Shown piece by piece: positions 5,585 through 43,294 of a DNA stretch of 64,000 bases (position 1 is its first letter; each line of letters opens with the position of its first letter). Source of the DNA: Eledone cirrhosa (lineage: Eukaryota). The translations under genes were made by a program, and so were the position numbers. The notes below the pieces were generated by a model. It searched no databases. It saw only the letters and a program-made list of their open reading frames with translations, and was not told where the DNA came from. The stretch covers positions 370,326,001 through 370,390,000 of the forward strand of contig OZ024741.1 in NCBI GenBank assembly GCA_964016885.1, read 5' to 3'.

Positions 5585-7305
5585 CACCGAGTAATATATA
5601 TTTGTTCCCCGGTTGTAAGTCTCATTTCCTGGTTTTCTATATCCCATTATTATAAAAGAAAACTATTATTTAATTAGAAGTTTGGGTTTGTGGTTAAAAG
5701 TTTGATATTTCGAAATTTTCATATTTTTCAAGAAAAAACACATTTTTTAAAAATTTATCAGTTCATATAATTAAATCAACAGAGTATATATTTATTTTAT
5801 TACACAAGCTTATCAAAAGCAAACGAGTAAAAACAAATAACACTTATAAAGAAACTTATACATGTCAGAAATGACTGGATTTCCTGGATTTGCGGTTGTA
5901 GGCCAGGTCGCATTCCCGCACTAGCCCCCAGATATAGACCCCCATCATTTTTTCATTGTAGTGGCCCTGGTACCTCCACTCTATCTCTTTCACATCTTGA
6001 TGGAATCGTTCGCCTTTTTCTTCTGAGTAGGCGCCCATATTGTCCTTGAATTTTTCCAGGTGAGCGTCCAGCATATAGAGTTTAAGCGACATCCTGCATC
6101 CCATGGCGCCAAAAGCCTTTATCAGATCCTGCACCAGTTGCTGGTAGTTTTCAGTTCTATAGTTGCCCAAGAAGCCCTTAAAAACTGCCTTGAAACAGTT
6201 CCATGCTGTTCTCTCAATCCTATTGAGCTTATTGGAGAACTCGGTAGACTCAAACACCTTCTTTATCTGAGGTCCACAAAAATTCCACCTTTGATTTTGG
6301 CTTTAGATAACTTGGGGAAGAACTCAAGAAGGTACTTAAAAGCGGCTGATTCTTGGTTGAGAGCCTTCACAAACTGCTTCATCAACCCCAACTTAATGTG
6401 CAGTGGCGGCATGAGCACAATCCTGGGATCAACCAGTGGCTCCCACATGACGTTCCGGGTCCCAACTACAAATTCTGTTCGCTGCTCCCAGTTCTTTCTT
6501 TTGTAGTGGTTAGAGGTGGCTCTGCTGTCCCAAAGGCAGAGGAAGCATTGGAATTTGATAAAGCCTCCTTGGAGTCCAAGCAGGAAAGCCACCATCTTGA
6601 AGTCTCCAATGATTTCCCAATTGTACTGGTTGTATTGTAGAGCTTCCAAGAGGACTTTCACACTGTAGTAATCTTCCTTCAGGCAGACTGAATGAGCTAG
6701 GGGCACTGTCGGGAACTTGTTTCCATTCTGGAGGAGGACAGCCTTCAAACTTGTGGTGGAGCTGTCTATAAATAGCCGCCACTCCTTGGGCACAAACGGC
6801 ACCCCAATAACGTCAAACAGTCCAGGCACGTCATGGCAGAAGCAGAGGCCATCCCTAAGAGTGTAAAAGCCTGAGAAAGGTTCGTGTCGACTTTTCTGAT
6901 TTGTCACCTGTACTTCCTCCTTGACAAAGTTCCACTGCTTCATCCTGGAGACGAATGCTTAAAACACAACTTACCCTTTATTCAGGGTGCGAAAATCCAG
7001 TATCAATAAATCTCTTTAATCCACTTTTTTGCACCTTTATAACTTACTTTAGGTATTACTCTTTATTTTATAATTTTAATTTAACCTGAAACATATATTA
7101 AAAAAATCATTTAACATAAGCAAATTAAACTTACATACAACGTAAAATCCAGCATACAAATAATTCTAGTGAATAGCTTAGAATTTTTATAAACCCAAAC
7201 TTTTAATTGTTTAATAGCACTTTTTAATTTATTTGGGACCTAAGTAACACAAAAAAAGTGATTACAAGCCAGGAACAGAGAAAAAAATGTGTTTGTTACA
7301 CGGTG
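5585..7305 (-). mobile_element. Chapaev3 (CMC) DNA transposon, internally deleted, with TIRs and a TTA target-site duplication
   Basis: Ends CACCGAGTAA... and ...TTACACGGTG; TTA at 5582-5584 and 7306-7308; ORFs 6263-6943 and 5865-6257 carry WRLFIDSS, GDFKMVAFLLGLQGG, PPLHIKLGLMKQFVKAL, GERFHQD; frameshift near 6265. Confidence 0.9.
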
Positions 7306-23284: not shown

Positions 23285-24765
23285 GTAACCACCCACTGAT
23301 AAGCGAGAAAGTGTGTATTTGTCAGGAGTATACAGGAGTAATAAACATGTGTGTGTGTATATGTGTATGTATGCGTGTATGTATGTTTACGTATATGTGT
23401 ATGTACGTATGTTTTGTGTGTATATGCGTGTATATGCGTGTATGTGTGTATGTGTGTATATGTTTGTATGTGGGTGTGTGTAACCACCCACTGATAAGCG
23501 AGAAAGAAAGTGTGCATTTATCAGGAGTATACAAGAGTAAATTAAATGTGTGTATGTGTGTGTGTGTGTGTGTGTGTATAGATGTGGATATTTATGAATG
23601 TATAGGTGTATGTATGTGTATGTGTGTAACAAGCCTCTGATAAGAGAGAAAAAGTGTATTTATTAAGGGTACAAAATGGCGACACAGCGGCAGATGTGTT
23701 AAGGCGTAGGATAAAAATTGGTTCGGTATCTGGTCGGGCTCGCTGCGCTCTGAGTTCAAATTTGGCTGATGTATTTCATCCTTTCAATATCAATAAGTAT
23801 CAGTGTAGTTGTGGGGTAATGGCGGTGGTCTTGTTATTGTCTCTAACTCCTGATATAGTCGTTGTTGTCCCGTAACTCCTGATATAGTCGTAGGGGCGGC
23901 GTATTGACATACGGCGTTTCTTGGGCATTTTAAGCCTGGCGGATCCCATTCGTCTCCAGGCCTGAGTACAACAGATTTCTTCCTGAGAAAATGAGAAAGA
24001 GGAAATGAGAAAAAAGATATAGAGGAAGAATCGACCCCAGTACTAGACTGGTACTTGTTTTATCGACATCGAAAGGATGAAAGGCAAAGTTAAGCTAAAC
24101 GGGATTTGAACTTAGAGAGCAGAGCGCCGGATCGAATACCATAAAGTATTCTATCCGACATTCTAACGACTCTGCCAATTCGCCGTCTTGCGTCTATAAT
24201 GGAGTGACAGTTTTATTGTTGGCAGCCCATTATTTATGCAACAATTGAGAGAGTCGTCAGAATGTAGAATACAATGCATTTCTGTATTCGTTTCGAATCT
24301 TTGCTCTTTGAGTTTAAATCCGAAGTTAACTTTGGCTTTGATCCTATCGGGGTCGATAAAACAAGTACTAGGTTGATTCTTCCTCTATATCTCTTTCTCA
24401 ATTCCTGTCTCTCATTCTCTATCCTTCTCTGGAAGAAAGCTGGAGAGTGTTGGGCTACAACAGGCTTAAAAATGCCCAAGAAACGCCGTATGTCAATACA
24501 GCGCCCGTACAACTCTATCCGGAATTACGGGACCATACATACATACATAGTCCAGTATAGGGTATTCATCCTATTTATGTGCGTGTATATATATATGCGC
24601 ATGTATGTAAGCGTGGATATAAGTGTATATCTATGTCTGTGTGTATATATGTGTATGGTTATATATGTATGTACCCGTTTATGTATGTGTATATGTGTAA
24701 CCACCTACTGATAAGAGAGAATGAAAGTGTGTGTTTATCAGGAGTAAACAGGAGTAATTTAAATG
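23285..24765 (+). repeat. About 65-bp motif GTAACCACCCACTGATAAGCGAGAAAG...TCAGGAGTATACA in four local copies
   Basis: Copies at about 23285, 23480, 23626 and 24697, separated by (TG/TATG) tracts and SINEs. Confidence 0.8.
23890..24510. mobile_element. Two composite SINE copies in inverted orientation
   Basis: 23890-24188 and 24238-24510 are diverged reverse complements; further copies at about 34315-34540 and 61750-62025. Confidence 0.8.
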
Positions 24766-29280: not shown

Positions 29281-29510
29281 TATAGCCATTTCTAATTCTG
29301 TTTGCATGTATGTCTGGGAATGCGTTGCGATTGCTTCCGGTTATAAGTGCATCATTAACCGACGGGAATTTCTCGAAAATTTCGGGTTTTCAATGTTTGA
29401 AAGTAAAGCTGTATTGCGGATACAACTTCGATTTCTACCTATTATATATATAAGGAAAAAAGATGAAATCCGAAATGCAACTGGAGTCTTTTTAAGAATA
29501 TTTATTTGGT

Positions 29511-29550
29511 TCCTTTACCGGTTTCGCAGTTCTTATGCTTTTCAAAAGTA
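29511..29550 (-). ncRNA. Hammerhead-like motif with U3:A8 core, family D copy 1
   Basis: Minus strand TACTT-TTGAAAA-GCA-TAAGAAC-TGC-GAAA-CCGG-TA-AAGGA. Confidence 0.55.
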
Positions 29551-29698
29551 GAATTGAGATGGAGGGTTTATGGTTTTTCATAGTAATAATAAATATGAAG
29601 ACCAAAATCCGAAGAGGGCTCGATAAGGGTTGTTTCAGTAGATCCCGTAATAGGGTGAAAGCAGCGATTCATTGCTTAAATTTTCATCTGTACCAATA

Positions 29699-30640: not shown

Positions 30641-30856
30641 ATAAATATAGACACACCTATATATATATTGCACACACACAGACGCATACACACACGCAAT
30701 CCTCACACATATATATACATACTTTACACACACATGCACATGCACACACACACACTATATGTATATATCTATATATCTATATATATCTATATATCTATAT
30801 ATATATATATATCTATATATATATATAAATATAAATACACGCACACACACACACAT

Positions 30857-31209
30857 CTTTGTTCTGTCCTACGCCATCTTGTTTTTGTGTGTGTGAACAC
30901 TCACAAAAACAAGATGGCGTAGGACAGAACAAAGGAGAGGCACAAAAACAAAGAAAATAATCCCCAGTCACTGAAGAGATCACAGAATGTGTGACGAAAG
31001 AACTTTGACAATATATGAACAATCGTCTCGTTGTGGAACCAACCAACCAACCGGAATTCCTAAATTTATAAATTTAATTTATAATAAATTGAAGTGAAAG
31101 CAAACGGGCGTGTGTTTCTTATTGGCAACATGACCCTCCCAAAGTATAACAATATCGGTTTCAACACACGTTTTCAGATAAGGAATCTTGCTAAACAAAT
31201 TCAGAAACG

Positions 31210-34266: not shown

Positions 34267-34870
34267 CGCATGTATGTATGTATGCTAATTCGTAGGGTGC
34301 TGTAGTCACAAAACCCGTTTCTTGGACATTTTAAACTGCCCAGAACCCATTCATGCACATGCCTGAACGCAGATGATTCCTTCCTGAGAAGAAGTAAGGA
34401 AGATATATTGAGAAAGAATCGACCTCAGATTGTTACATTTTCATTTTAATCGACCTCCAACGGATTAAGGCCCAAGTTGACGTTGGTGCATATTGAACTT
34501 ACTGAACTTAACTGTGGAGAGAGCCGGAACGTTCTAACTAATAGATAGAAAGATAGATAGATTATGTGTGTGTGTGTATGTATTTGTATTTGTGATTATT
34601 CGTCGTATGTGTTTGCGGCAGAGTATAGTGTGTATAATACATGAGATTTTATATATGCATTATGGTGGTGCACCTACAAATGCAAATGTATTATACACAT
34701 CGTACCTTGTAGGAAGTAAATGCGACGAATAGATACAAATTCATTTACACATTCATTCATAGTTTCTCCCTCACACACAAACTAACACCTACAGACGCAC
34801 ACATACACACACACACACACATACAGACACACACACACACAGACACACACACACATACAGACACACTTAC

Positions 34871-43249: not shown

Positions 43250-43294
43250 GCAACCGATAGCCATTTCTCGCTCGTTAGCGGTTATCAAGATTGC
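43250..43294 (-). ncRNA. Hammerhead motif with U3:A8 core, family E
   Basis: Minus strand GCAATC-TTGATAA-CCGCT-AACG-AGCGA-GAAA-TGGCTA-TC-GGTTGC; 6-bp stem I including one G-U pair. Confidence 0.68.

What the first reader, a model, noticed from the sequence alone, without database searches (positions are those of the whole stretch)
29455..29550. Second U3:A8 hammerhead family (UUGAAAA), with two copies 33 kb apart
Seen: 29511-29550 (minus) and 62980-63021 (plus) both read TTGAAAA-(G/T)CA-loop-TGC-GAAA-CCGG-TA-AAG and share a 3' flank (AATAAA..AAAGACTCC..TTGCATTT). They differ at many other positions but keep the same variant core, so the core was probably inherited. The sequence looks unrelated to family E, so U3:A8 may have arisen more than once (inference).
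Basis: partly seen in the sequence, partly recalled or inferred. Interest (0 to 1): 0.75.

Follow-up and report, generated by a model that had tools for sequence, protein, structure and literature searches.

The report
Variant Penelope hammerhead with cut footprint
The two motifs are end-pieces of two related Penelope-like jumping genes, one with over 13,000 copies, that carry an already described variant of a predicted self-cutting hammerhead RNA; an excess of copies begin exactly at the predicted cut, which likely records slow cutting in living cells.

Summary
Observation confirmed. Both motifs are truncated 3' ends (pseudo-LTRs) of Penelope-like retrotransposons (PLEs), from two sister families rather than one: A (29449-29579; the motif pattern has 13,428 matches; RT plus GIY-YIG-type ORF, Neptune/Nematis-type linker) and older B (62772-63078). 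U3:A8 is inherited: 98 of 100 flank-anchored A copies and 30 of 30 B copies keep it, and stems I and II covary across families. The U3-A8 core itself is published for Schistosoma PLEs (PMC4209133). Added here: 12 of 51 A arms joined to (TA)n start on the first base after the predicted cut (background 0.77 per position), and 73 copies genome-wide against 9-24 at three nearby positions. This likely records slow in vivo cutting; the scan noted such footprints before on other DNA. Against strict function: only about 1-2% of copies start there, B lacks G10.1-C11.1, and one related family breaks the 3:8 pair. Repeated origin of U3:A8 is plausible (the pair toggles within a related family) but untested for family E. 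Cleavage was not assayed.

The parts
29449..29579 (-). 5'-truncated solo pseudo-LTR fragment of PLE family A (subfamily A2), ending at the first 3' terminus in a short (TA)n run
   Evidence: blastn of L071 against the window, 82% over 146 columns; terminus equals L071 position 6902
29546..29548 (-). stem I 5' strand (CUU); pair 4 is A.G in subfamily A2 and C-G in A1
   Evidence: sequence
29539..29545 (-). hammerhead core 5' half, U3-U4-G5-A6-A7-A8-A9 (U3:A8 variant)
29526..29538 (-). stem II and loop: 3 bp here with G10.1-C11.1; 4 bp in the commonest young copies
29516..29525 (-). core 3' half GAAA, palindrome ACCGGU (stem III, predicted intermolecular) and GUA triplet; predicted cut between 29516 and 29515
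   Evidence: footprint at the equivalent L071 position 6821
29513..29515 (-). stem I 3' strand (AAG)
62772..63078 (+). 5'-truncated pseudo-LTR fragment of older sister PLE family B, followed by (CA)n and (TA)n
   Evidence: blastn with other B copies, 83-85%; B loci carry ORF remnants about 64-78% identical to the family A protein (L078, L086, L102)
62980..62985 (+). stem I 5' strand of family B (6 bp in the family majority; one A.A mismatch in this copy)
62986..62992 (+). core 5' half with U3:A8
   Evidence: 30 of 30 B copies
62993..63005 (+). weak stem II; 10.1:11.1 is U.C here and U.U in 27 of 30 B copies
63006..63015 (+). GAAA, ACCGGU palindrome and GUA triplet; predicted cut between 63015 and 63016
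63016..63021 (+). stem I 3' strand of family B

Best explanation
Both motifs sit in the pseudo-LTR of endonuclease-bearing Penelope-like retrotransposons and are small type I hammerhead motifs with a U3:A8 core pair, which likely cut their own RNA slowly, probably as dimers paired through the ACCGGU palindrome. Shown: the element anatomy (the hammerhead lies about 170 nt before the ORF1 start and 82 and about 145 nt before two fixed 3' ends), inheritance of the core, covariation of stems I and II across families, and an excess of copies starting at the predicted cut. Inferred: the element RNA is mostly reverse-transcribed uncut or re-ligated; in about 1-2% of events the RNA had been cut, reverse transcriptase ran off the cut 5' end, and the cDNA was joined to (TA)n or folded back, leaving the footprint. 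The two window copies are dead, truncated insertions that lie too far apart and on opposite strands to act as a pair.
For: Element: RT ORF of 775 aa with DKG, YLDD, a C-x4-C-x2-C linker and a GIY-YIG-like Y..K...YIGQT motif, ending about 1.1 kb upstream of the hammerhead. A sense hammerhead lies about 580 nt upstream of the ORF1 query in 16 of 30 loci. Many head-to-head inverted pairs; two fixed 3' ends into (TA)n. Core: 98 of the first 100 flank-anchored matches (12,961 in all, counted by eye); B 30 of 30; N7 is the position that varies between families. Covariation on 55 distinct copies: 9 of 13 pairs change on both sides, score 0.375 against 0.116 shuffled and at most 0.104 when slid (relatedness inflates this). 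Dimer in the active topology -21.1 kcal/mol against 2 x -7.5 for monomers. Footprint: 12 of 51 arms (11 loci) start at the first base after GUA, against 0.77 per position upstream; 7 of 23 among direct joins against 0.38. Genome-wide 73 against 19, 9 and 24. U3-A8 and dimer dependence are known for PLE hammerheads.
Against: No cleavage assay. About 98-99% of copies read through the site, and 0 of 22 upstream pseudo-LTRs of full-length copies start at it. Family B has U.U at 10.1:11.1 (27 of 30) and only 2 clean stem II pairs. Family C1 has a 1-2 bp proximal stem I, yet also shows starts near the site (5 of 18, blurred by TA microhomology). Related family F207 mostly has G.A or A.G at 3:8 (19 of 30; only 2 of 30 Watson-Crick). 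Other junction hot spots exist: 7 of 51 at position 6823 and 4 of 51 at 6808, and about 9 of about 62 at one position of a control window (by eye). The control excludes (TA)n flanks and is biased low. The C families were retrieved by the core pattern, so their core identity is partly circular. The monomer fold is no more stable than shuffles (z 0.15, 0.65 and -0.76), and Rfam finds no hammerhead. In an anole PLE, catalytic mutants did not affect insertion in vitro.
Confidence: 0.7

Rival explanations
1. The motif is a hammerhead-derived structural or protein-binding element that no longer needs to cut. The pile-up of 5' ends arises because reverse transcriptase stalls at the edge of the ACCGGU duplex or stem I, or from microhomology with (TA)n.
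For: Families amplified with U.U at 10.1:11.1, poor stem I or a broken 3:8 pair. Family C1 shows a similar pile-up despite a poor stem I. Other hot spots exist. Hammerhead mutants do not block insertion in vitro, and no RNA read ends were seen at the site in anole (PMC11167929). Naiads thrive without canonical hammerheads (PMC8557442).
Against: The peak is at 6821 (12 arms), not at the duplex edge (6819: 5, 6820: 4), and those two classes can arise from 6821 plus A or TA microhomology. It is about 5 times the top position of the control window (estimated). Positions needed only for catalysis (U4, G5, A6, A9, GAAA, GUA) are kept even where the stems change. The youngest family has a full G10.1-C11.1 pair and a 4-bp stem I.
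Confidence: 0.22
2. The hammerhead cuts efficiently and the RNA is re-ligated into a circle, which is the real template. Read-through copies and partial tandems come from copying across the re-ligated site.
For: The junction between tail and ORF1 leader is the same in all 23 loci that show it. The model was proposed in PMC4209133.
Against: The constant junction lies about 145 nt downstream of the cut and is equally explained by internal initiation on a tandem transcript (PMC11167929). Minimal PLE hammerheads are slow in vitro. No RNA data were available.
Confidence: 0.06
3. The match is a chance resemblance to a hammerhead within an AT-rich repeat that was copied passively.
For: Short stems, no Rfam hit, no folding z-score.
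Against: Location in the pseudo-LTR as in other PLEs; compensatory changes in stems I and II between families; the N7 position varies freely; the 3:8 pair toggles to C-G.
Confidence: 0.02

Closest known systems
U3-A8 minimal hammerheads of Schistosoma mansoni Cercyon PLEs, about 1,300 hits (Cervera and de la Pena 2014, PMC4209133; parts 1-2 of 4 of the text read)
   Same: Type I motif in PLE terminal repeats; U3-A8 instead of C3-G8; mostly single truncated copies and nearby inverted pairs; predicted dimer.
   Different: Here helix II is short (4 bp, 5-nt loop) with no extra nucleotide before 10.1 in family A, and helix III carries a 4-nt palindromic insert. The copies are far more numerous and uniform. 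In the parts read, the paper reports no insertion footprint and does not say that a U3-A8 construct was assayed.
PLE hammerhead variants with a small palindromic helix III in Drosophila, rotifer, shrimp and mosquito (PMC4209133), and the dimer-cleaving variants of Lunse, Weinberg and Breaker (PMC5785218; not held, only its title and a review passage seen)
   Same: Short palindromic stem III that needs a second copy; short helix I.
   Different: Whether Lunse et al. include this exact core or lineage could not be checked.
Neptune/Nematis-type endonuclease-bearing PLEs (Craig et al. 2021, PMC8557442; passages)
   Same: RT, CX2-5CxxC linker, C-terminal GIY-YIG-like domain, (TA)n target, partial tandem and inverted 5'-truncated copies, optional tail; an ORF1 separated by a frameshift is named in the legend of Fig. 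1.
   Different: The tail is about 63 nt rather than 30-40. The clade was not placed by a tree. The legend does not say which clade has the frameshifted ORF1.
Poseidon PAc hammerhead of Anolis (Frangieh et al. 2024, PMC11167929; parts 1-2 of 4 read)
   Same: pLTR hammerhead upstream of two reverse-transcription start sites that define the tail; AT-rich target.
   Different: PAc has C3:G8 and overlaps the ORF start, and its cleavage needs the protein. Here the ORF1 start is about 170 nt downstream of the cut.

Membership tests
Minimal type I hammerhead of metazoan PLEs | Conserved core with a Watson-Crick 3:8 pair, GAAA and a UH triplet | tested here: met
   U3:A8 variant; 98 of 100 A and 30 of 30 B copies; GUA triplet
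Minimal type I hammerhead of metazoan PLEs | Helix I and helix II pairing | tested here: met
   A1: 4 bp + 4 bp; B: 6 bp stem I with A-U (16) against G-C (9) at pair 5 of 30 copies; compensatory changes across families. Stem II is weak in B.
Minimal type I hammerhead of metazoan PLEs | G10.1-C11.1 pair | tested here: inconclusive
   Met in family A and window copy A; not met in B (U.U in 27 of 30) or C3 (U.U in 30 of 30)
Minimal type I hammerhead of metazoan PLEs | Extra nucleotide between 9 and 10.1 (typical, PMC4209133) | tested here: not met
   G10.1 follows A9 directly in family A
Minimal type I hammerhead of metazoan PLEs | Palindromic, very short stem III | tested here: met
   ACCGGU; predicted duplex -10.3 kcal/mol with flanking bases
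Minimal type I hammerhead of metazoan PLEs | Located in the pLTR of a PLE | tested here: met
Minimal type I hammerhead of metazoan PLEs | Self-cleavage, as a dimer | not testable with these tools
   Only indirect: excess of copies starting at the predicted cut
Rfam hammerhead families | Covariance-model match | tested here: not met
   No hammerhead family at E up to 10 on the young copy; none among the 150 of 711 window matches shown
Endonuclease-bearing PLE, Neptune/Nematis type | PLE-type RT with DKG motif | tested here: met
   Pfam RVT_1 E 6e-6 (below the gathering score), DKG and YLDD visible
Endonuclease-bearing PLE, Neptune/Nematis type | C-terminal GIY-YIG endonuclease | tested here: inconclusive
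   Motif with internal cysteines visible in the sequence, but Pfam GIY-YIG did not hit this ORF at E 0.1
Endonuclease-bearing PLE, Neptune/Nematis type | CX2-5CxxC linker between RT and EN | tested here: met
   C-x4-C-x2-C in ORF2; definition
Endonuclease-bearing PLE, Neptune/Nematis type | Partial tandem pLTR, inverted 5'-truncated copy, optional tail, (TA)n target | tested here: met
Endonuclease-bearing PLE, Neptune/Nematis type | Clade placement by RT tree | not tested
   No reference PLE proteins were on hand
Non-LTR retrozyme | Non-coding tandem monomers, each with a hammerhead | tested here: not met
   Family A encodes its own RT-EN ORF; the presumed family E fits better (316-nt repeat spacing)

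The most novel reading that the evidence does not exclude
A U3:A8 hammerhead with only 4-bp stems cuts germ-line RNA in vivo, and the genome has recorded this as 150-250 insertions that start at the cut. The lineage is a natural evolution series of the core: 3:8 as U-A, C.A, C-G and G.A, and 10.1:11.1 as U.U, G.U and G-C, with the best-paired version in the youngest and most abundant family. Footprint strength per family could then be read as a genomic activity assay for core variants.
Probability: 0.45. Interest if true: 0.6.

Novelty: new member of a known kind. Interest (0 to 1): 0.42.

Why it matters
Whether PLE hammerheads cut in vivo, and why, is an open question (PMC8557442 and PMC11167929 passages). 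The variant core is not new, but here it comes with more than 13,000 near-identical copies, an apparently intact parent element, sister families with graded core defects and a countable cut-site footprint. That makes a direct comparison of activity against footprint possible. It also shows that canonical CUGANGA descriptors and Rfam miss this abundant ribozyme lineage (22 canonical matches against 13,428 and 3,550 variant matches).

Tried and rejected
Rfam scans gave only microsatellite-driven miRNA hits or weak unrelated hits. Monomer folding z-scores were uninformative. The GIY-YIG ORF next to the motif in L026 and L029 was first taken for the parent; it was rejected because it belongs to another PLE family with a C3:G8 hammerhead, into whose (TA)n tail family A inserted. 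Sequencing runs: no RNA holder listed. Contigs of three runs laid on the pLTR showed only the subfamily differences and the two 3' ends. Searches of phages and of PDB sequences with ORF2 gave no match; the protein atlas was unavailable. The control pattern was found to be biased and was supplemented. An RT tree for the origin of U3:A8 was not built, because the ORF fragments overlap little, no outgroup was on hand and family E gave no ORF. Papers not held: Lunse et al. and Hammann et al. 2012. Literature searches: C3U with G8A gave 0 papers; U3-A8 was found only in PMC4209133; one search gave nothing relevant; one search listed two plant retrozyme papers (listing only) and none on cut-site footprints in PLE insertions; one search listed none on this lineage. 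Supplements of PMC4209133 (fig. S2 alignment) were not read and may hold closer relatives. Rows dropped: 5 of 60 sequences with apparent indels or broken flanks were left out of alignment A2, and the pattern that chose the 60 captured no F207 copy. Two of 53 arms without a nearby (TA)n were left out, where 4 arms outside the peak were misplaced by indels.

Full report
Observation. The motif is present at 29516-29545 (minus) and 62986-63015 (plus), with 0 matches in 100 shuffles. The copies share 5' and 3' flanks. In the 3.0-Gb host genome G000 the pattern has 13,428 exact matches and the reversed control has 0; many lie as head-to-head inverted pairs. An earlier AI note calls the host an octopus; I did not check this.

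The element. Walking upstream from young copies gave a 775-aa RT ORF (Pfam RVT_1 E 6e-6) with DKG, YLDD, a C-x4-C-x2-C linker and a GIY-YIG-like C-terminus. It ends about 1.1 kb before the hammerhead. Upstream lies a 400-aa ORF1. All 30 loci examined show the same ORF1 end region, 16 of 30 with ORF1 intact, and ORF2 overlaps it in the -1 frame in L069, L071 and L076. In 16 of these 30 loci a second sense hammerhead lies about 200 nt before the ORF1 start, so the motif is in the pseudo-LTR. Copies end at two fixed points, 82 and about 145 nt after the predicted cut (47 and 99 of 172 hits), and run into (TA)n. This matches the described anatomy of endonuclease-bearing PLEs of Neptune/Nematis type (PMC8557442 passages; PMC3846280 passages). 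Window copy A (29449-29579) is a 131-nt solo end of this family.

Copy B is a sister family. Its best other genomic matches are 80-87% identical, and ORF remnants in three B loci are about 64-78% identical to the A protein. All 30 B copies have U3:A8. Stem I has 6 bp and covaries inside the family (pair 5: A-U 16, G-C 9, G.U 2, other 3), but 10.1:11.1 is U.U in 27 of 30. Between A and B, 16 of 16 core and palindrome positions are identical, against 66% and 59% in the flanks and 6 of 13 in stem II and loop. In family A, 98 of the first 100 of 12,961 flank-anchored matches keep the seven core letters (by eye).

Wider lineage. A looser pattern that excludes most of A gave 3,550 matches (control 21), mostly related families C with N7 = U, C or A, whose ORFs are about 48-62% identical to A. 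The canonical core with the same palindrome gave only 22 matches (control 9). Following two of those: family C3 has 26 U3:A8, 2 C3:G8 and 2 C3.A8 among 30 copies, so the pair toggles within a family; family F207 has 13 G.A, 6 A.G, 4 G.G and only 2 Watson-Crick pairs among 30, while U4, G5, A6, A9 and GAAA stay. On 55 distinct copies of A, B and C, 9 of 13 pairs change on both sides, with a covariation score of 0.375 against 0.116 shuffled and at most 0.104 slid; these reflect few independent events, and the C families were retrieved by their core. Family C1 has almost no proximal stem I. Older relatives show U.U or G.U at 10.1:11.1 and the youngest family G-C; the order of these changes is inferred, not tested on a tree.

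Mechanism. The monomer cannot close stem III around 2 nt. A strand-swapped dimer is predicted at -21.1 kcal/mol against -15.0 for two monomers. I tested whether 5' ends of truncated copies pile up at the cut. Among arms joined to (TA)n within 30 nt of an anchor just past the cut (first 100 of 659 listed matches, 47 regions fetched), 12 of 51 arms start on the first base after GUA, against 0.77 per position over the 26 positions upstream; 7 of 23 among direct joins against 0.38. The next highest positions had 7, 5, 4 and 4 arms. Genome-wide, patterns demanding four non-matching letters before the start gave 73 at the cut, 19 three bases upstream, 9 six bases upstream (biased low) and 24 ten bases upstream. 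A control window 40-50 nt downstream had 42 forward matches over 15 positions, with a top non-native position of about 9 of about 62 arms (by eye), about a fifth of the cut-site rate. Family C1 gave 5 of 18 loci at its cut, blurred by microhomology (by eye). With pass rates of 0.31-0.46, 73 matches imply about 150-250 copies, or 1-2% of the family. None of 22 upstream pseudo-LTRs of full-length copies starts at the cut. The best reading is slow cutting that is not required for most insertions; stalling of reverse transcriptase at the palindrome duplex remains a rival.

Family E. I was not given it. The only other U3:A8 motif with two good stems that my window scan found is at 43288 (minus). 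Its 30 relatives have U3:A8 in 30 of 30, a long stem I, a different covarying palindrome and a UC site; it has 316-nt repeat spacing and no PLE ORF in 30 loci, like a retrozyme. Retrozymes are reported to derive from PLE pLTRs (bioRxiv 10.64898/2026.07.22.740005; part 1 of 5 and passages), so a different look does not prove a separate origin. Two transitions suffice for the switch, intermediates exist in C3, and the variant also occurs in Schistosoma, so repeated origin is plausible and unsurprising.

Comparison with what is known. U3-A8 minimal hammerheads in PLE repeats, about 1,300 hits in S. mansoni, and weak dimer-dependent cleavage of a minimal motif were published (PMC4209133). A review passage states the dimer model (PMC6765202). 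Lunse et al. could not be read. In anole PAc the hammerhead is protein-assisted and dispensable for insertion in vitro (PMC11167929). That a U3-A8 swap keeps some activity in engineered hammerheads is recalled and comes from no call. My searches found no paper on cut-site footprints in PLE insertions, but this scan noted them before in other genomes and in another family of this genome, and also cases where the hot spot was not at the cut (seen after my own test). Other U3:A8 families in this genome were noted too.

Verdict. A real feature and a new member of a known kind. The variant core is known; the added value is a large, young family with graded relatives and a countable footprint that suggests the variant cuts in vivo. 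Interest 0.42.

Noticed in passing
L071:3355-3445 (ORF1/ORF2 overlap of family A): A 400-aa ORF1 overlaps the RT-EN ORF in the -1 frame. A U_UUU_UUA heptamer in the ORF1 frame (present in 29 of 30 loci) is followed 5-6 nt later by a weak hairpin: a likely programmed -1 frameshift. Frameshifted ORF1s are named for some PLEs in PMC8557442.
   Followed up: partly
   Followed up: partly
window 30855-31060 (plus); L026 and L029: Another PLE family with a canonical C3:G8 hammerhead and a fold-back 5' end; its GIY-YIG ORF is in L026 and L029, where family A has inserted into its (TA)n tail.
   Followed up: partly
L249-L278 (family F207): Related pLTR family in which 3:8 is mostly G.A or A.G while the rest of the core is kept; a natural negative control or an unknown tolerated variant.
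   Followed up: partly
L144, L153 (family C2): The core is directly preceded by a possible splice acceptor (CAG), the proximal stem I is 1 bp, and a 6-bp pairing is possible about 10 nt further downstream; it recalls the intron-adjacent hammerhead of D. virilis Penelope.
   Followed up: no
window 24420-24520 (plus), 23880-23990 (minus), 34280-34390 (minus): Related repeat copies, two of them as an inverted pair, with GAAA followed by a near-palindrome and UA; a possible further hammerhead-like family with an odd 5' half.
   Followed up: no
window 1397 (minus), 1458 (plus), 42398 (plus): Three copies of a repeat with a canonical CUGAAGA half, GAAA and an AGUACU palindrome; two form a head-to-head pair.
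   Followed up: no
window 53206-53260 (plus): Canonical CUGAUGA motif with a long stem II and an AT palindrome in stem III.
   Followed up: no
window 33810 (plus) and 51071 (minus): GAAA followed by CG-containing palindromes and UA-AAG; possible decayed hammerhead halves.
   Followed up: no
L071:6746-6760 equivalent, many loci: A second pile-up of 5' starts about 43 nt upstream of the core (30 of 172 hits at 6748-6751); the sample is biased towards intact hammerheads and the pile-up is unexplained.
   Followed up: no
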